Shown here: in pieces, positions 15,425-58,995 of the stretch
Layout of the letters: each line of letters starts with the position of its first letter
Position numbering within the stretch: position 1 is the first letter of the stretch
Source of the DNA: a virus
Taxonomy: Duplodnaviria > Caudoviricetes
Reading direction: 5' to 3' (one strand)
Length of the DNA: 64,000 nt
Virus record (IMG/VR): IMGVR_UViG_3300037067_018912
Coordinates: 224,001-288,000 of that record
Notes under the pieces: model-generated
The model's input: the letters and a program-made list of their open reading frames with translations, nothing else
What the model was told of the DNA's origin: nothing
The model's database searches: none
Translations under genes and position numbers: made by a program

Positions 15425-18319
15425 TTAATTAGGTCCACCACCAAGTGTAAAGTTTCCACCACCAGTTCCACCACCACCAAACGGATTTTCAAGGTTTAAT
15501 GGTTTGTATTGGAATCCCATTGAACCTCCTTCAATAAAATCGGGCATGCGCAATCTGTCGGTTTCATATCCCTGTTTCATTACAGCATATTTGACTTCCG
15601 GCGACATCCTGCTCATCATATTCTGCCTGGCGGCTTTAAATCTGCCATTGAGAGCATCTTTGAATATGTCGGTAAATACCGCATCAATTGATTGGGGATC
15701 GTTTTGATCAAGATTTTCGAACTTCTGTGCACTCGATTGAAAAGCACTTTTCATTTTTGCCCAAAATTCCTCAGTCACAACACCCTTTTCTTTCATTGAG
15801 GACTCAAACAGATTGAATTGTTTATCGATCAGGCCGTCAAGTTTCTTCAACGTTTCAGATTTTTTCGATTCAGTAAGCATTGGTTTCCTCAAACCGACTC
15901 TTTCTTCAATGCGAGCACGAACATATTTACGAAATTTTTGTTCAGATTCAGACATTTCAGATTTTTCCTCGGTTTTTTTCTTTCCAAAGAACTTTTCCTG
16001 TGCAGGTGTTAATTTTTTCTTGCCGGGTGCTGATTTCTTTTCTTCGGGTTTCTCTTCCGTTTCTTCTTCTTCGGGTTTTTCTGTTTCATTTACCTTTTTC
16101 AATCCTTTGGGTGCAGTTGTGAAAGGCTTACCTTTTCCAACCACGCCGCCTTTTGTTTCTGCGAGGTATGTATTGACACCGTCGGCTATCTGCCTGATCA
16201 ATTTATGCTTCGCTTCATTCATCGAGATGTTGACCGTCTTGTCGGGACTGATGTTAATATCGACGCCCGTTGTCGGAGCACCGTCCGGTTTCGCCGTTAC
16301 AACGCCGAGGGATTGTGCTTCGGGTGCGAATTTTATTCCGTCATCGCTTGCACTGCCCATATCTTCGCCTCCCATCATGTCTTCTGCCTTTTCTTCTGCC
16401 GGGGATTCCCCTGCTTCATGTTCGGGGGATTCGAGTTCCTCGTCATCCTCTTTCAACATGTTGGGTTGAACTTCTACATTGCCGGGATCGACAACACCTT
16501 CCGCCGCCATTTTAACCTGACCTGCAGTAGTCTTCGCAGTCTGACCTTGCTTCCATGCATTTTGTGCTGCAGCATTCATGGGTTTACCACTTTTGCCAAC
16601 AGCAGGTGCTGCCGGAGCACTGATTTGAGCCACTATCTGATTCAACAATTGTTGAACTTCCGGCGGAGTCTGTCCTGCTTTTTTCGTTGTACTGACAAGA
16701 TTGTTGATTTGTTTCGCCAATTCATTGGCAGAATCTTGGAGTTTCTTGTATGCGGGATTTACTTCTCCTTTATAATATTGTTGTTTGACTGCTTGACCTG
16801 CTTGTCCAACTGCCTGTGCTCCTTGTTTAAGCGCACCACCAACTGCCTGTGCTCCTTGTTTGACTGCACCACCGACCGCTTGGCCTGCAGATTTAAGTCC
16901 TCCACCAATTGCACTACCAGCAGCCTTACCCAGGCTTTTCAGACCACCCCAAAGTTCGTCAATTTTCTGTTGTTTGTTTTCATCTCCGCTTTCGTTCATC
17001 GTATTGACAAAAGGTGCTAATTCATTAACATACTCCTCATGTCCGTATTCCTCTTTCAAACATTCCATAATGGAATCGTTCGCATATAATGCAACATTAC
17101 CGAAATCACCATCGTTTTGGCCTTCTCCGTGTGCAGTCGCATATCCTCCAATCAGGCTACCCAATTCTTCATTGCCACATTCGGCGATTGATTCTTTGGT
17201 GTATCCTCTTGATTCAGCATACTGTGCGAAATTACCGCATTCAGCGCACATTCCTTCTTCAACACCTGCTTCATCATCCTGTGGAACAGTTGCACTAACG
17301 TCCTCAATTTCATCATCAGGAACGACTTTGAGTATCAAGTCGGCAATTTCCTTCCTGTCTTCGATTTCGATGTTCCTGATTTTGTTTTTGAATGAAGTGA
17401 TGAATGATTTAAGGTATGACTTGATTTGAGGTGGTTCTAAGTCTGTTTTCCTTATTTTTTCCGTCAACTTGCCAAGGCTTTTTTCAATTTCCTGCATGGT
17501 GAGACTTTTTTCATCTTCCGGTGCAGCAACTGCATCATCTGCCATTGCTTCAGCATCAGCATCTTCACCACCTTCGGGAGCAGGTTCACCTTCACCGCCT
17601 TCAGGAGACATTCCTTCTCCACCTTCCGGGGCAGGTTCACCTTCACCACCTTCCGGGGCAGGCATATCTCCACCTTCAGCAGGAGGTAATCCTTCACCAC
17701 CTTCAGCAGGAGGTAATCCTTCACCACCTTCCGGGGCAGGCATTCCTTCGCCACCTTCAGCAGGAGGTAATCCTTCACCACCTTCCGGGGCAGGCATATC
17801 TCCACCTTCGGGAGCGGATGGTTCTGCTTCCAATCCGGCATCCATTTCTGCTTCGGGAGCGACAGGTCCGGCGGGAACTTCTGCTGCCGCTGCAGCATCA
17901 AGGTCACCCAATTTTTCTTCTGCTTGGTCAATCTCTTCACCAGCCTTATCTTCGTTTAATCTTTTCTTTCCACCATTCGGATTCGGCCTTAACCGGGAAG
18001 ATTCTGAAATTACGTTGAGCAGCATGCTTCTCTGCTTATCGGCTTCCGAAAGTTTCTGAAACTGATATTCAGTGATATTACCCAATCCGCCAATATATGC
18101 AAAATCGGAAACATCAGGGTCTTGTTTCAAACCAGCCTTTTTTATGTAATAATGATGCTGTTCTTTGATGATACCGTAAGCAATACCGTCTGCTGCCCGC
18201 TTGTAATCGATCAGTGTGCCCAGGTTGCGAATTTGAGATTCTTTTACTGAAACCTTGTTCACTTCCGCCAAGTTTCTCAGTCTTGAGTAAAAAGCCTCTT
18301 CTGAACTATGTTTTTTCAT
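15425..18319 (-). CDS. Large low-complexity acidic protein, probable internal head protein
   Basis: 964 aa, PAPEGGEG/LPPAEGGEG repeats, many (L/I/M)xE sites. Confidence 0.75.
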   Translation of the reverse strand: MKKHSSEEAFYSRLRNLAEVNKVSVKESQIRNLGTLIDYKRAADGIAYGIIKEQHHYYIKKAGLKQDPDVSDFAYIGGLGNITEYQFQKLSEADKQRSMLLNVISESSRLRPNPNGGKKRLNEDKAGEEIDQAEEKLGDLDAAAAAEVPAGPVAPEAEMDAGLEAEPSAPEGGDMPAPEGGEGLPPAEGGEGMPAPEGGEGLPPAEGGEGLPPAEGGDMPAPEGGEGEPAPEGGEGMSPEGGEGEPAPEGGEDADAEAMADDAVAAPEDEKSLTMQEIEKSLGKLTEKIRKTDLEPPQIKSYLKSFITSFKNKIRNIEIEDRKEIADLILKVVPDDEIEDVSATVPQDDEAGVEEGMCAECGNFAQYAESRGYTKESIAECGNEELGSLIGGYATAHGEGQNDGDFGNVALYANDSIMECLKEEYGHEEYVNELAPFVNTMNESGDENKQQKIDELWGGLKSLGKAAGSAIGGGLKSAGQAVGGAVKQGAQAVGGALKQGAQAVGQAGQAVKQQYYKGEVNPAYKKLQDSANELAKQINNLVSTTKKAGQTPPEVQQLLNQIVAQISAPAAPAVGKSGKPMNAAAQNAWKQGQTAKTTAGQVKMAAEGVVDPGNVEVQPNMLKEDDEELESPEHEAGESPAEEKAEDMMGGEDMGSASDDGIKFAPEAQSLGVVTAKPDGAPTTGVDINISPDKTVNISMNEAKHKLIRQIADGVNTYLAETKGGVVGKGKPFTTAPKGLKKVNETEKPEEEETEEKPEEKKSAPGKKKLTPAQEKFFGKKKTEEKSEMSESEQKFRKYVRARIEERVGLRKPMLTESKKSETLKKLDGLIDKQFNLFESSMKEKGVVTEEFWAKMKSAFQSSAQKFENLDQNDPQSIDAVFTDIFKDALNGRFKAARQNMMSRMSPEVKYAVMKQGYETDRLRMPDFIEGGSMGFQYKPLNLENPFGGGGTGGGNFTLGGGPN
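17560..17815 (-). repeat. Coding tandem repeats (about 27-nt units, PAPEGGEG-like)
   Basis: Repeated ccttcaccaccttc(cggg/agca) units inside the 964-aa ORF. Confidence 0.85.
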
Positions 18320-29713: not shown

Positions 29714-29787
29714 AGTCCTGTAGTTTATACGGGTGTGAATGCCCCTGCGCACGGGGGTGGTTGCTGGTTCAAATCCAGTCAGGACTG
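29714..29787 (+). ncRNA. tRNA-like element with aberrant anticodon loop
   Basis: Acceptor AGTCCTG/CAGGACT, T arm GGTTCAAATCC, anticodon region CCCCT-GCGCAC-GGGGG. Confidence 0.65.
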
Positions 29788-29793
29788 CAAATC

Positions 29794-33754: not shown

Positions 33755-34117
33755 GGGGGTGCTTTGGCTTTGACAGCGTGAACGGGATATGACGCAAGCA
33801 AGTGGTAGTTGAATCGGACTACCTTAAAAAGGTTCAAAACAATAGAAGCAGAGGATATAATGTCCATTCCAACTTCCCTCACAAGGGGAAGAAGCGTTTT
33901 CGTTGAGAGTGCTGAACTCATCGCAGCGTAAGGAAGCAACAAACGGCAAAAAACTTCCCAAATCATTCAGGTCTTTTGAAATCTGGTTTTTGGAAGATAC
34001 AGGAAGTAAAATAAAAGAATTGAATCAGATATGTTGACTGTTCTGAAAAACAGTATAAACTTGTAGAAAACGCATTGATCGCATGTTTGGACCGGGGTTC
34101 GACTCCCCGCACCTCCA
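33755..34117 (+). ncRNA. ssrA: tmRNA
   Basis: 5' GGGGGTG...TTTGAC, 3' GGGGTTCGACTCCCCGCACCTCCA with G3.U70; internal tag ORF 33848-33931 ending ELIAA-stop. Confidence 0.93.
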
Positions 34118-34143
34118 CTTAAACAATTGTAAATTAATTATTT

Positions 34144-40127: not shown

Positions 40128-40496
40128 TCATCCACCGAAGATCAATTTAACCTTCTCCTCAATTTCTTCGGGAGTGAAATTGGAAATCGATTCTGCTTTT
40201 GTGGTTATAATGTGCTCGTTCTTCAATAAGACACGAATTTCACCTTCTTTGACATCACCTTCAATAAAGACTCCAGATTCCGTTCCCTTGAATCTTTTTA
40301 AATCACCACCGTCGGGAATATTGGTAAAATCAAGATAATAGCAACCCTTTTTGAATTCCAGCACGGTTGATTTCTCTTTTTCAACGAAAAGCCTTTGTTT
40401 TATCAATTTCTTTTCTTTCTCCTTGTTCCAAAAACCAGGATCGACCCTTTGTATCGCTTTCAGCAATAATACTGAACCATGTGTGAAATTGGTCAT
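40128..40496 (-). CDS. Hypothetical protein
   Basis: 122-aa ORF, GTATTTAT upstream. Confidence 0.65.
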   Translation of the reverse strand: MTNFTHGSVLLLKAIQRVDPGFWNKEKEKKLIKQRLFVEKEKSTVLEFKKGCYYLDFTNIPDGGDLKRFKGTESGVFIEGDVKEGEIRVLLKNEHIITTKAESISNFTPEEIEEKVKLIFGG

Positions 40497-40551
40497 AATT
40501 TAAAGATTTTAACATAAATACAAAATTATTTAGATTTTTTTGTAACTTTTA

Positions 40552-40582
40552 TTTGTTAGTCTCGTATTTATTCGTACATTTG
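40552..40582 (+). promoter_or_regulatory. Bacteroidota-type promoter of tRNA operon 3
   Basis: TTTG(40552-55)-N19-TACATTTG(40575-82). Confidence 0.8.
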
Positions 40583-40619
40583 CATCACGATTTTTGATAA
40601 ACTAAGTAAAAACAATATA

Positions 40620-40712
40620 ATGTTTGCATTCGGAACATATTATTACACCAAGAAATCTTATAAAAAGCAATTTATAGGAATCGGGAATAATATGTCCACA
40701 TGCGAAAGATAA
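40620..40712 (+). CDS. Attenuator leader peptide 3 (Tyr/Lys), MFAFGTYYYTKKSYKKQFIGIGNNMSTCER
   Basis: 30-aa ORF; 8 of 10 consecutive codons are Tyr/Lys. Confidence 0.85.
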   Translation: MFAFGTYYYTKKSYKKQFIGIGNNMSTCER

Positions 40713-40737
40713 GCAATGATCTTTGCATTATGCACTG

Positions 40738-40772
40738 AAAACCCGGTTCGAAAGACCGGGTTTTTTTGTTTT
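40738..40772 (+). terminator. Attenuator terminator 3
   Basis: AAAACCCGGTT-CGAAA-GACCGGGTTTT; CCCGGTTC pairs with GAATCGGG (40678-85). Confidence 0.88.
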
Positions 40773-40777
40773 ATGTT

Positions 40778-40849
40778 GATCTCGTAGCAAAGTTGGTTTA
40801 GCCTCGGACTTTTAATCCGAAGACGTGGGTTCGAGTCCCACCGGGATCA
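40778..40849 (+). tRNA. tRNA-Lys(TTT)
   Basis: TCGGA-CT-TTT-AA-TCCGA. Confidence 0.88.
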
Positions 40850-40919
40850 CAGCGATGGAGACATTTGGAACTTTTGTAGAACAGCCGCACAAATGCGTGG
40901 AAGCGTAAAAGTTCAATAA

Positions 40920-40998
40920 GGAAGTGTTGGGTGCTGGAATACCCAAGAGTCTGTAAAACTCCCGCTTCGGCATGTAGGTTCGAGTCCTACCACTTCCA
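40920..40998 (+). tRNA. tRNA-Tyr(GTA)
   Basis: GAGT-CT-GTA-AA-ACTC, V arm GC-TTCG-GC. Confidence 0.8.
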
Positions 40999-41073
40999 CT
41001 AACTGAAACCGTGTGAACCGGAGTTTCTGTTAACCCGTTCAATTAGAACGGGAAGAGTTTAAAAGGTTCATTT

Positions 41074-41157
41074 GTATCCGTAGCAAAGAGGCTATGCACC
41101 AGACTTTTAATCTGGGGACAGTATTGTCCTACGTGGGTTCGAATCCCACCGGGTACA
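41074..41157 (+). tRNA. tRNA-Lys(TTT) with long variable arm
   Basis: CCAGA-CT-TTT-AA-TCTGG then GGACA-GTAT-TGTCC. Confidence 0.82.
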
Positions 41158-41222
41158 CTGATAAAACTTAACGTGGTCGGAAGTTTATTATTCCGAAAGG
41201 CAACTGTTTCAAGATCACAAAT

Positions 41223-41304
41223 GCAGTCGTGGCAGAATGGCCATGCTCCTGACTCTTAATCAGGGTACGAAAGTACGATGGGGGTTCGAATCCCTTCGGC
41301 TGCA
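41223..41304 (+). tRNA. tRNA-Lys(CTT) with long variable arm
   Basis: CCTGA-CT-CTT-AA-TCAGG then GTAC-GAAA-GTAC. Confidence 0.82.
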
Positions 41305-41310
41305 CAAAAT

Positions 41311-41382
41311 GTCTTCGTGGCTCAACGGTAGAGTAACTGACTCTTAATCAGTGGGTTGTGGGTTCGAATCCCACCGGGGACA
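41311..41382 (+). tRNA. tRNA-Lys(CTT)
   Basis: ACTGA-CT-CTT-AA-TCAGT. Confidence 0.9.
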
Positions 41383-41388
41383 CAAAAT

Positions 41389-41502
41389 GGGAGTGTGGTC
41401 GAGCGGTAGACGCAGGCTGAATTGGTACACTGTTTGGGTTTACAACCTTAACAAACAGAGGAAGCCTGATAAGTACGCAGGTTCGAATCCTGCCACCCTC
41501 CA
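41389..41502 (+). ncRNA. tRNA-like RNA with a structured insertion of about 45 nt in place of the anticodon loop
   Basis: D arm GGTCGAGCGGTAGAC, T arm GCAGGTTCGAATCCTGC, CAGGCT...AGCCTG enclosing CTGTTTG...CAAACAG. Confidence 0.7.
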
Positions 41503-41507
41503 CAAAA

Positions 41508-41753
41508 ATGATGAGTATGGAAACTTTAAAACAAATCGTAAGCGGAACATTGGCCAAAATGAGCCATATGTGTAACGGAAAAGTGTATTACACGATCGAT
41601 ACACAGGAACATTCGTATCAACTTGAAATTGATTGCCTGGACAAGGAATGGAAGGATGTTTATATCCTCCCGAAGTATAAGGCGATCACTCTGATGCGTT
41701 GGATCAGAAAAGGCATTGAGAAGGACAACGGCACGTTCATAATGTTGAAATAA
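41508..41753 (+). CDS. Hypothetical protein
   Basis: 81 aa, KAITLMRWIRK motif. Confidence 0.7.
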   Translation: MMSMETLKQIVSGTLAKMSHMCNGKVYYTIDTQEHSYQLEIDCLDKEWKDVYILPKYKAITLMRWIRKGIEKDNGTFIMLK

Positions 41754-41759
41754 TGTGTT

Positions 41760-41848
41760 GGGAGTGCGGTAACGGTGGTGGTGTTGCAATTGACTGTAAA
41801 TCAATTCCCATAGGGTAAACATTGGGGGTTCGAATCCCTCCACTCTCA
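41760..41848 (+). tRNA. tRNA-Tyr(GTA)
   Basis: ATTGA-CT-GTA-AA-TCAAT, long V region. Confidence 0.82.
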
Positions 41849-41851
41849 CAC

Positions 41852-41882
41852 AAAACCCGGTTCGAAAGACCGGGTTTTTTTA
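41852..41882 (+). terminator. Terminator closing tRNA operon 3
   Basis: AAAACCCGGTTCGAAAGACCGGGTTTTT, same sequence as 40738. Confidence 0.9.
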
Positions 41883-41998
41883 TTTTAAGTATTTATATTC
41901 CCAATTATATTTATTCAGACTAAATAAAAATAACCTTGCATTTCTGTTCTGAATTAGTTATATTTGGTAAAATAACTTTATTTAATGCTTACGTATAC

Positions 41999-42871
41999 AT
42001 GGCAAAAAAAGTAAAAAAGGTGACGACTACAACCACCGTTACCGAAGAAATCATCGAAGGATCATCAAACGAAAAAACACAAATTGTTTGTATCCTTGAC
42101 CGTTCAGGCTCAATGAGTGAAGGCGGAATAATCTATGAAGCAATCAACGGCTTCAACCGTTTCTTGAAAGAACAAAAAGAATTGAAAGACCAGGCTACAA
42201 TTACTGTTGCCTTGTTCGACGATCGTTATGAACTCCTTTATGATGACATCGACATCAAAAAAGTTCCAGAAATAACTTATGCCACTTGGACTCCAAGGGG
42301 AACTACCGCCTTATTGGATGCTATTGGCAAAACTGTTAACACTGTCAAGTCAAACCACATCCGTTTAGGGAGTGAGAAACCTGCGAAAGTTCTCGTTTGC
42401 ATCGTAACGGACGGTAAAGAGAATGCCAGTCATGAGTACACCCGTGAAGGCATCAGAAGTCTCATTCGGGAACGTGAAAGGGATAATTGGAACTTCATCT
42501 ACCTGGCAGCAAACCAAGATGCGTTTGCCGTTGGACAATCGTTCGGTATCAGTCATCATAACAACTACACCTATGCTGCATCAGGTGCGGGTATGATGGA
42601 TATGAGTAGTGTATTGGGAAATGCCACGACTTCATACAGAAGTATGGTCTCCAGTTCTGCAGATTTTCAAACAAGATCGAAATCCCTTCTCAAAGACGAG
42701 GGCGATGCAAAGGACAATCTCACAGACAACATTAATGTTGTTGGTACAATCAAAGGTAATGACACGTATTTCAGCACCGGAACTGTGGTTTACAGCGGAG
42801 GAACAACTACAAATAGCACGGGTGTTCCGGGTGATGTCAATTTCACCGCTCAAAACGTCACAGTGACATAA
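41999..42871 (+). CDS. vWA-domain protein
   Basis: MIDAS ILDRSGSM, GTTALLDAIG, IVTDGKEN. Confidence 0.88.
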   Translation: MAKKVKKVTTTTTVTEEIIEGSSNEKTQIVCILDRSGSMSEGGIIYEAINGFNRFLKEQKELKDQATITVALFDDRYELLYDDIDIKKVPEITYATWTPRGTTALLDAIGKTVNTVKSNHIRLGSEKPAKVLVCIVTDGKENASHEYTREGIRSLIRERERDNWNFIYLAANQDAFAVGQSFGISHHNNYTYAASGAGMMDMSSVLGNATTSYRSMVSSSADFQTRSKSLLKDEGDAKDNLTDNINVVGTIKGNDTYFSTGTVVYSGGTTTNSTGVPGDVNFTAQNVTVT

Positions 42872-58906: not shown

Positions 58907-58979
58907 GGTTCTGTAACTTAATCGGCTAAAGTAGCAGTCTCTAAAACTGTGTTTGCGGGTTCGAACCCCGCCAGGATCA
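58907..58979 (+). tRNA. Amber suppressor tRNA (CTA anticodon)
   Basis: Acceptor GGTTCTG/CAGGATC, GCAGT-CT-CTA-AA-ACTGT, T arm GCGGGTTCGAACCCCGC. Confidence 0.88.
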
Positions 58980-58995
58980 CCTATATATTTTTACA

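What the first reader, a model, noticed from the sequence alone, without database searches (positions are those of the whole stretch)
40620..41882. Attenuator 3: Tyr/Lys leader on a self-contained Lys/Tyr tRNA cassette bracketed by identical terminators
Leader core YYYTKKSYKK (TAT, TAC, AAG, AAA) precedes Lys TTT x2, Lys CTT x2, Tyr GTA x2 and one tRNA-like RNA. The hairpin AAAACCCGGTTCGAAAGACCGGGTTTTT occurs both as attenuator (40738) and as end terminator (41852). The antiterminator is weaker here (GAATCGGG/CCCGGTTC, 8 bp with G.U). A protector helix GGAACATATTATT/AATAATATGTCC covers the Tyr codons. Established: tRNA-Lys (PrrC) and tRNA-Tyr (colicin E5-type nucleases) are known anticodon-nuclease targets. 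Inference: this is a dedicated counter-defence module.
Basis: partly seen in the sequence, partly recalled or inferred. Interest (0 to 1): 0.85.

Follow-up and report, generated by a model that had tools for sequence, protein, structure and literature searches.

The report
Leader-peptide switch gating phage Lys/Tyr tRNAs
A 357-kb uncultured phage keeps all its lysine and tyrosine tRNA genes behind a tiny translated test gene rich in Lys/Tyr codons, wired to a switchable transcription stop; it probably makes these tRNAs only when ribosomes read those codons slowly, a control I could not find published for tRNA genes.

Summary
Observation confirmed.

The attenuator reading is well supported by sequence and comparison.
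- Folding: a ribosome waiting at any Lys/Tyr codon leaves an 8-nt segment free to pair with the terminator's 5' arm. One codier further on, that option is lost.
- Relatives: 36 other IMG/VR contigs, with 26 distinct leaders including this window's, carry the same unit. In a scan anchored on a neighbouring gene, 31 of 32 loci with Lys/Tyr tRNAs had it.
- The tRNAs behind it are Lys and Tyr, with two odd Leu calls I did not check, although their order and number vary.
- Two helices of the closed state show compensatory changes. Two divergent leaders changed the antiterminator segment and the terminator arm together. Two lineages keep that segment in a different reading frame.

Not supported as stated:
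- The "dedicated counter-defence module" is untested; the same design gates all four tRNA blocks.
- The identical bracketing terminators occur only in this genome.

The scan had already reported the other three attenuators, and this same stretch, in this same genome. It had not reported them on other DNA.

The parts
40552..40582 (+). Promoter: TTTG, then TAnnTTTG (-7 box at 40575-40582). This is a Bacteroidota-type consensus, judged from my own knowledge.
   Evidence: the full motif occurs only 7 times on the + strand of the window, and 4 of these sit before the four leaders. None lies inside the array. The motif is conserved in relatives.
40620..40712 (+). Leader ORF of 30 codons with a TAA stop and an A-rich 5' UTR.
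   Evidence: An ORF of 28-31 codons is kept in most of the 26 distinct leaders; four are called at 19-48. The other two frames carry stops in 24/26 and 26/26.
40638..40667 (+). Sensor codons 7-16: four Tyr (TAT x3, TAC) and four Lys (AAG x2, AAA x2).
   Evidence: The stall window that allows antitermination ends exactly at the last Lys codon.
40632..40697 (+). Closed state (anti-antiterminator): outer helix 40632-44 with 40686-97, and inner hairpin 40656-64 with 40671-79.
   Evidence: minimum-energy fold; 94% of cells paired in 14 sequences, against 36-54% when slid; two pairs have compensatory changes; 0 of 500 shuffles reach the observed values.
40678..40685 (+). Segment 2 of the switch (GAAUCGGG), the 5' strand of the antiterminator.
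   Evidence: Unchanged in 23 of the 26 distinct leaders, including two lineages where it is read in another frame. It changes together with the terminator arm in L067 and L074.
40700..40731 (+). Small hairpin around the stop codon. It lies inside the antiterminator loop and would be melted by a ribosome reaching the stop.
   Evidence: Similar hairpins in L067 and L072 only, read by eye. The spacer is otherwise variable.
40737..40772 (+). Intrinsic terminator: 12-bp stem, 5-nt loop and T-run. Its 5' arm (40742-49) is segment 3 of the switch.
   Evidence: -16 kcal/mol. Present at the same place in every relative.
40778..41383 (+). Five tRNA genes: Lys-ttt, Tyr-gta, Lys-ttt (85 nt), Lys-ctt (83 nt), Lys-ctt.
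41389..41501 (+). 113-nt tRNA-shaped RNA with a Tyr-like acceptor stem and about 46 nt in place of an anticodon loop.
   Evidence: 33 bits; a homologue at L025:3711-3823 has compensatory changes in the acceptor stem, anticodon stem, insert helix and T stem.
41508..41753 (+). ORF of 81 aa inside the array; function unknown.
   Evidence: 67-72% identical ORFs sit at the same place in L043 and L044. No Pfam match and only a weak PHROG match.
41760..41849 (+). tRNA-Tyr (gta), 90 nt.
41852..41882 (+). End terminator, identical to the attenuator hairpin.
   Evidence: Not conserved as a repeat in relatives.

Best explanation
This is a ribosome-mediated (leader-peptide) transcription attenuator that controls the phage's only Lys and Tyr tRNA genes.

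How it most likely works:
1. Host RNA polymerase starts at the promoter at 40552-82 and transcribes the 30-codon leader.
2. With no ribosome, or with a ribosome that runs through to the stop, the leader RNA closes on itself (40632-97). The terminator at 40737-72 then forms and transcription stops 6 nt before the first tRNA.
3. If charged Lys- or Tyr-tRNA is short, the ribosome waits at one of the eight Lys/Tyr codons (40638-67). There it holds the closed helices open but does not cover GAAUCGGG (40678-85).
4. That segment pairs with the terminator's 5' arm as soon as the arm is made. The terminator cannot form, and the six tRNAs, the tRNA-shaped RNA and ORF81 are transcribed.
5. The new tRNAs relieve the stall and shut the switch again. 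This is a closed loop in which the product is sensed directly.

Shown here: the parts, their geometry, their conservation and covariation, and the fixed link to Lys/Tyr tRNAs.

Inferred: that the ORF is translated, that stalling occurs, that read-through rises, and what depletes the tRNAs in nature. Possible causes are defence nucleases, loss of the host tRNA supply during infection, or the phage's own codon demand.
For: Architecture
- Promoter, ORF, terminator and array follow one another. There is no consensus promoter inside the array and only 6 nt between the T-run and the first tRNA.

Folding
- With the A site on codons 3-16 the antiterminator forms before the 3' arm exists (-21 to -22.5 kcal/mol). 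From codon 17 on it does not. Without a ribosome the closed hairpin plus terminator is the minimum-energy fold.
- The same stall window is seen in 14 close leaders and in 10-11 of 12 divergent leaders.

Statistics
- The K/Y core is unique among 539 small ORFs.
- Leader-to-arm pairing: p about 0.016 here, and 0.001-0.004 for the other three units of the genome.
- Each of the four leaders is enriched for the amino acids of its own array.

Comparison
- The unit is found in 36 other contigs.
- 31 of 32 loci found through the neighbouring vWA gene, and carrying Lys/Tyr tRNAs, have it.
- The arrays behind it hold Lys and Tyr tRNAs in varying order and number, apart from two unchecked Leu calls.

Covariation
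- Closed state: two compensatory pairs, 94% of cells paired, 0 of 500 shuffles reach this.
- Antiterminator: L067 and L074 changed segment 2 and the arm together, and each leader pairs best with its own arm.
- L062 and L072 keep GAAUCGGG after a 1-nt shift of frame. So this part is constrained as RNA, while the K/Y core stays in frame.
- The one relative without a leader ORF (G001) has also lost its Lys tRNAs from this locus.

Premise
- Cleavage of a tRNA makes ribosomes stall at its codons (abstract of PMC13096801).
Against: - There is no expression, 3'-end or ribosome data.
- In the close relatives 7 of the 8 antiterminator pairs never vary. Support for that helix therefore rests on two divergent lineages and on the paralogous units.
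- The K/Y codons lie inside conserved helices, so part of their nucleotide conservation could be structural.
- The stop codon lies 24 nt past segment 2. A terminating ribosome therefore does not cover segment 2 as in trpL, and the 'off' state depends on refolding behind the ribosome, which I modelled only by nested folding.
- L076, L077 and L079 have weak or no predicted antiterminators.
- At equilibrium the terminator always wins, so the model needs kinetic control, as in trp.
Confidence: 0.75

Rival explanations
1. Same switch, but its evolved purpose is specifically counter-defence. The unit would be a dedicated alarm that fires when host anticodon nucleases cut tRNA-Lys or tRNA-Tyr, and it would then deliver replacement, possibly nuclease-resistant, tRNAs.
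For: - tRNA-Lys (PrrC170, PARIS AriB) and tRNA-Tyr (retron-Eco7 PtuAB) are proven defence targets that phages counter with their own tRNAs (PMC11555353, PMC11464382).
- Lys and Tyr are kept together as a separate unit in all 36 relatives.
- The arrays hold unusual members: Lys tRNAs with long variable arms and a tRNA-shaped RNA without a normal anticodon loop.
Against: - The other three units use the same design for 17 further amino acids, so no special role for Lys/Tyr is needed.
- No nuclease, host or resistance feature was tested.
- The known cases are from E. coli phages, while this phage has Bacteroidota-type promoters.
Confidence: 0.25
2. The promoter, ORF and terminator form a separate small gene for a 30-aa peptide or a short RNA. 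In this view the tRNAs are made by constitutive leak-through or from unrecognised promoters, and the match of K/Y codons to the tRNAs reflects AT-rich sequence.
For: - The unit is a complete transcription unit on its own.
- Lys and Tyr codons are AT-rich in a 40% GC genome.
- Several relatives have 130-370 nt of extra sequence between the terminator and the first tRNA, which could hide a promoter.
Against: - The C-terminal half of the peptide is not conserved and changes frame in two lineages, while the RNA segment is kept.
- Leaders of the other arrays are rich in Pro/His/Gln and other residues with GC-rich codons that match their own tRNAs.
- Leader-to-arm complementarity exceeds shuffles in all four units and covaries.
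- There is no consensus promoter in the array.
Confidence: 0.07
3. An RNA-only or protein-assisted switch. The conserved helices would bind a tRNA, as a T-box does, or a phage antitermination protein, and the ORF would be incidental.
For: - The Lys/Tyr codons lie in conserved helices.
- Most antiterminator pairs are invariant.
Against: - No T-box or other riboswitch family is found at E up to 1.
- The start codon, the open frame and the stop position are kept in 26 of 26 distinct leaders, while the other frames are closed.
- Divergent leaders (L074, L079, L060, L075) differ in sequence but stay K/Y-rich.
- In one compensatory pair the Lys side changes synonymously (AAG to AAA) while the partner changes the amino acid.
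Confidence: 0.06

Closest known systems
Leader-peptide attenuators of enterobacterial amino-acid operons (trpL, hisL, pheL, and the multivalent thrL and ilvL), from established knowledge
   Same: A short ORF with clustered codons for the sensed amino acids. Four RNA segments form closed, antiterminator and terminator pairings. The terminator is stronger and the antiterminator weaker, so control is kinetic. Termination is the default without translation. Two amino acids are sensed at once, as in thrL.
   Different: - The regulated genes are tRNAs, not biosynthetic enzymes, so the sensed molecule is itself the product.
- The unit is phage-borne.
- The promoter is Bacteroidota-type and there is no Shine-Dalgarno sequence.
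- The stop codon lies well past segment 2, so the 'off' state relies on refolding behind the ribosome.
pheM leader attenuator of the pheST (Phe-tRNA synthetase) operon of E. coli, from established knowledge
   Same: Leader-peptide attenuation applied to a gene of the translation apparatus. It responds to charged-tRNA supply rather than to a biosynthetic need.
   Different: It controls a synthetase, not tRNA genes. It senses a single amino acid and is chromosomal.
T-box leaders of Gram-positive bacteria
   Same: They sense the state of a specific tRNA and switch between terminator and antiterminator.
   Different: T-box RNA binds the tRNA directly and needs no ribosome or ORF. No T-box match is found here.
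Phage tRNAs that rescue infection from tRNA-cutting defences (T5 tRNA-Tyr and tRNA-Lys; T1 and T7 given tRNA-Lys): PMC11555353, PMC11464382
   Same: The same two tRNA species, carried by a phage in a tRNA-rich region.
   Different: T5 drives its tRNA-Tyr from a strong promoter (a section heading of PMC11555353). No demand-sensing leader is described in what I read of these papers. A role in defence is untested for this phage.

Membership tests
Ribosome-mediated (leader-peptide) transcription attenuators | Short ORF with start and stop in the 5' leader, downstream of a promoter | tested here: met
   ORF 40620-40712 lies 37 nt after the -7 box. It is kept open in 26 of 26 distinct leaders, while the other frames are closed.
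Ribosome-mediated (leader-peptide) transcription attenuators | Cluster of codons cognate to what the operon supplies | tested here: met
   8 Lys/Tyr in 10 codons, 1 of 539 small ORFs. The array holds only Lys and Tyr tRNAs here, and with two unchecked Leu calls also in relatives.
Ribosome-mediated (leader-peptide) transcription attenuators | Intrinsic terminator between the leader and the regulated genes | tested here: met
   12-bp GC-rich stem plus 7 T at 40737-67, -16 kcal/mol. It is conserved in position.
Ribosome-mediated (leader-peptide) transcription attenuators | Antiterminator that shares the terminator's 5' arm | tested here: met
   8 bp, 40678-85 with 40742-49. Shuffle p about 0.016. 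100% paired in 14 sequences. Joint changes in L067 and L074.
Ribosome-mediated (leader-peptide) transcription attenuators | Anti-antiterminator overlapping the sensor codons, so that a stalled ribosome frees segment 2 | tested here: met
   Helices 40632-44/40686-97 and 40656-64/40671-79, with two compensatory pairs. The stall window ends at the last Lys codon.
Ribosome-mediated (leader-peptide) transcription attenuators | Read-through rises when the cognate charged tRNA is scarce | not testable with these tools
   This needs a reporter assay, 3'-end mapping or coupled transcription-translation.
Ribosome-mediated (leader-peptide) transcription attenuators | Regulated genes are amino-acid biosynthesis or synthetase genes (true of all described members I know) | tested here: not met
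   The regulated genes are tRNAs plus one small ORF. For this reason I file it as a new variant rather than a plain member.
T-box riboswitch | Match to the T-box covariance model (specifier loop, T-box sequence) | tested here: not met
   No RF00230 match at E up to 1 in 40400-42000.
Phage counter-defence tRNAs (T5-type) | The phage tRNA restores infection in the presence of a tRNA-cutting defence | not testable with these tools
   The host and its defences are unknown. Only the identity of the tRNAs (Lys, Tyr) agrees.

The most novel reading that the evidence does not exclude
A family of giant phages runs a closed-loop tRNA homeostat. Each tRNA block is transcribed only when ribosomes stall on a test peptide written in that block's codons. 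The Lys/Tyr channel is kept separate because these two tRNAs are the ones host defence nucleases cut. It would therefore act as an attack sensor that releases replacement tRNAs, and perhaps a tRNA-shaped decoy RNA, on demand.
Probability: 0.25. Interest if true: 0.9.

Novelty: new variant of a known kind. Interest (0 to 1): 0.8.

Why it matters
Leader-peptide attenuation is a textbook mechanism, but as far as I know and could find it has been described only for amino-acid and synthetase genes. Six full-text searches found no case for tRNA genes.

Here the sensed molecule, charged tRNA, is made from the gene product itself. That gives the shortest possible feedback loop for tRNA supply.

It would also help with a long-standing question, why phages carry tRNAs and when they use them, because it makes the question testable. 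The leader says which shortage the phage is watching for, and a simple reporter would show what triggers it. Candidate triggers are defence nucleases, host shut-off and codon demand.

The conserved, compact switch of about 190 nt could also serve as a sensor of codon-specific translation speed in Bacteroidota.

Tried and rejected
- GenBank phages: blastn of the cassette gave only short tRNA matches and no relative.
- Rfam on the leader: no riboswitch, T-box or sRNA family. The T-box idea was rejected.
- ARAGORN with introns called the 113-nt RNA 'tRNA-Pro(agg) with a 39-nt intron'. I do not trust this. The acceptor stem is Tyr-like and the insert is a conserved helix.
- ORF81: no Pfam family and only a marginal PHROG match. 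No function assigned.
- Identical terminators as a mark of a mobile cassette: relatives have unrelated end terminators, so this was dropped as a general feature.
- Covariation of the antiterminator among close relatives: uninformative, because 7 of 8 pairs are invariant. Divergent loci were needed.
- L076, L077 and L079: I found no convincing antiterminator.
- G001 (324 kb): the Lys/Tyr leader ORF is absent and only tRNA-Tyr remains at the locus. I did not scan the rest of that genome for Lys tRNAs.
The count of leaders was redone from the files.

Full report
**What is there.** The window is bases 224001-288000 of a 357,275-bp IMG/VR phage record with direct terminal repeats. It holds 58 tRNA genes and a tmRNA. 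The whole genome has only two more tRNAs, and all six of its Lys and Tyr tRNAs lie in the stretch under study.
- a 30-codon ORF at 40620-40712, whose codons 7-16 are four Tyr and four Lys with two other residues between them;
- a GC-rich hairpin with a T-run at 40737-72, and a letter-identical copy at 41852-82;
- Lys-ttt x2, Lys-ctt x2 and Tyr-gta x2;
- a 113-nt RNA at 41389-41501 that passes the Rfam tRNA threshold.

An 81-codon ORF (41508-41753) also lies inside the array.

**Surroundings.** A promoter of the form TTTG, spacer, TAnnTTTG lies at 40552-82. This full motif occurs only seven times on the + strand of the window. Four of those sit in front of the four tRNA blocks, and none lies inside the Lys/Tyr array. 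Only 6 nt separate the T-run from the first tRNA, so transcription of the array has to pass through the hairpin.

The other three blocks have the same layout. Their leaders are rich in Pro/His/Gln, in Asp/Glu/Val/Leu/Ala/Trp, and in Thr/Cys/Asn/Ile/Ser/Phe/Gly/Arg, which match their own tRNAs. Binomial enrichment is about 4-7e-5 for each of those three. For the whole Lys/Tyr leader it is 0.025, but that leader's core of 8 K/Y in 10 residues is unique among 539 small ORFs.

**The switch.** Three states were modelled:
- No ribosome: the minimum-energy fold of 40600-40772 is a long hairpin over the ORF plus the terminator. The hairpin has an outer helix (40632-44 with 40686-97) and an inner hairpin (40656-64 with 40671-79).
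- Stalled ribosome: I modelled it by leaving free only the RNA from 13 nt past the first base of the A-site codon, and folded the RNA that exists before the terminator's 3' arm is made. With the A site on codons 3-16, GAAUCGGG (40678-85) pairs with CCCGGUUC (40742-49), giving structures of -21 to -22.5 kcal/mol. From codon 17 onward this pairing is lost. All eight Lys/Tyr codons are codons 7-16, so the last sensor codon sits exactly at the edge of the permissive window.
- Equilibrium: the terminator wins (-27 to -33 kcal/mol). The switch must therefore be kinetic, as in trp.

The stop codon lies 24 nt past segment 2. A ribosome at the stop therefore does not cover that segment. The off state has to come from the leader refolding behind the ribosome and from the ribosome sitting inside the would-be antiterminator loop. 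This step is inference.

**Chance.** Pairing between each leader and its own terminator arm was compared with 1000 dinucleotide shuffles. The numbers as good or better were 1, 4, 16 (this unit) and 3.

**Relatives.** Two scans of IMG/VR were made.
- A degenerate pattern for the K/Y core found 22 contigs. In all of them an ATG-to-stop frame of 28-30 codons is kept. All 21 with enough sequence are followed by a terminator and then by Lys and Tyr tRNAs in differing order and number, 2 to 6 per array, apart from one unchecked Leu call at the end of L033.
- That scan presupposes the core, so I made a second scan anchored on the neighbouring vWA-domain gene, which found 35 contigs. Of the 32 with Lys or Tyr tRNAs upstream, 31 have a K/Y-rich small ORF in front of the array, each followed by a terminator.
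- The exception is G001, a 324-kb genome. It keeps the promoter, a weakened terminator and one tRNA-Tyr, but has no leader ORF and no Lys tRNA at the locus.

In all, 36 other contigs carry the unit. Counting this window's own leader, there are 26 distinct leaders.

**Covariation.** On 14 distinct close sequences (alignment A1) the closed-state helices are 94% paired, against 36-54% when the partner is slid. Two pairs have changes on both sides (A-U to U-A; G-C to A-U), and 0 of 500 shuffles reach the observed values. In the second of these pairs the Lys codon changes synonymously while its partner changes the amino acid, as expected if the Lys codon is held as a codon.

The antiterminator is 100% paired, but 7 of its 8 pairs never vary in this set, so that set is uninformative. 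Divergent leaders are informative:
- In L067, segment 2 reads GGAUUCGGG and the arm reads CCCGAAUUC.
- In L074, segment 2 reads UAAGACUGG and the arm reads CCGGUCUUA.
- In a cross table each of these leaders pairs best with its own arm.
- In L062 and L072 a 1-nt shift puts GAAUCGGG in a different reading frame and changes the rest of the peptide, while the K/Y core stays in frame.
- In relatives the arm bases that pair with segment 2 are invariant, even where their partners in the terminator's 3' arm vary.
- The orthologous Pro/His/Gln unit of G001 has changed segment 2, arm and 3' arm together relative to the window (GAAUGGG with CCCAUUC; read by eye).

The stall window ends within a codon of the last K/Y codon in 10-11 of 12 divergent leaders. 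L076, L077 and L079 show no convincing antiterminator.

**Interpretation.** The parts, geometry, conservation and fixed association with Lys/Tyr tRNAs fit a leader-peptide attenuator that senses the supply of charged Lys- and Tyr-tRNA and answers by making those tRNAs. Translation of the leader, stalling and regulated read-through are inferred. No RNA data could be consulted.

An RNA-only switch, or a separate small gene, is unlikely for the reasons given under the rival explanations. The strongest reason is that four leaders in one genome, with quite different codons, each match their own array.

**Counter-defence.** It is true that tRNA-Lys and tRNA-Tyr are cut by known defence systems, and that phages answer with their own copies (PMC11555353, PMC11464382; colicin E5 from my own knowledge). 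It is also true that tRNA cleavage makes ribosomes stall at the cognate codons (PMC13096801). But nothing here tests it, and the same design on all four blocks is explained more simply by supply control.

The identical bracketing terminators are specific to this genome.

**Comparison and novelty.** The mechanism is that of trpL, hisL, thrL and pheM. The target class (tRNA genes), the carrier (a phage) and the direct product feedback are new as far as six full-text searches show. Earlier follow-ups of this scan reached the same reading for the other three units of this same genome. None was on other DNA.

Noticed in passing
window 41389-41501; L025:3711-3823: A 113-nt tRNA-shaped RNA with a Tyr-like acceptor stem. 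About 46 nt replace the anticodon loop: a conserved 12-nt strand, a 7-bp helix and a 15-nt conserved loop. The two copies show compensatory changes in the acceptor stem, anticodon stem, insert helix and T stem, so it is a real structured RNA of unknown role. A decoy, a spliced tRNA or a partner of tRNA-Tyr are all open.
   Followed up: partly
window 41074-41158 and 41223-41305; also L034, L028, L032: tRNA-Lys genes of 83-88 nt with a long extra arm, unusual for lysine tRNAs. Each sits beside a normal 73-nt copy with the same anticodon.
   Followed up: no
window 41508-41753; L043:737-973; L044:3169-3405: A conserved 78-81-aa ORF (67-72% identity) inside the Lys/Tyr array, which would be co-transcribed under the attenuator. 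It matches no known family.
   Followed up: partly
L028:12082-12867; L046:1071-1724 (-); L027:1777-2421: ORFs with motifs that I read by eye as HNH-type and other endonucleases are inserted within or next to the Lys/Tyr arrays of relatives. They look like homing endonucleases and may explain the reshuffling of the arrays.
   Followed up: no
L060:400-700; L061, L065 and L075 at the same place: A conserved non-coding stretch of about 270-320 nt lies between the attenuator terminator and the first called tRNA. It has no Rfam match. It is followed by an 84-nt Rfam tRNA hit (42 bits, L060:615-698) that ARAGORN did not call.
   Followed up: partly
L026, L028, L032, L033, L043-L045, L063: about 130 nt after the terminator: A run of repeated short A-rich words ending in AAAAAC lies between the terminator and the first tRNA. 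It has no consensus promoter. It could be a protein-binding or processing region.
   Followed up: no
L047 (G001:28000-46000, read reversed) 17541-18030: A 324-kb relative keeps the promoter and a weakened terminator but has no leader ORF and only tRNA-Tyr at this locus. Its Pro/His/Gln and Asp/Glu/Val/Leu/Ala/Trp units keep matched leaders.
   Followed up: partly
window 58907-58981, 29714-29788, 33755-34118; genome C1:159671-159745: The phage carries a CUA-anticodon (amber suppressor type) tRNA, a UCA-anticodon tRNA, a tRNA with a four-base anticodon call and its own tmRNA. These hint at stop-codon reassignment or suppression.
   Followed up: no
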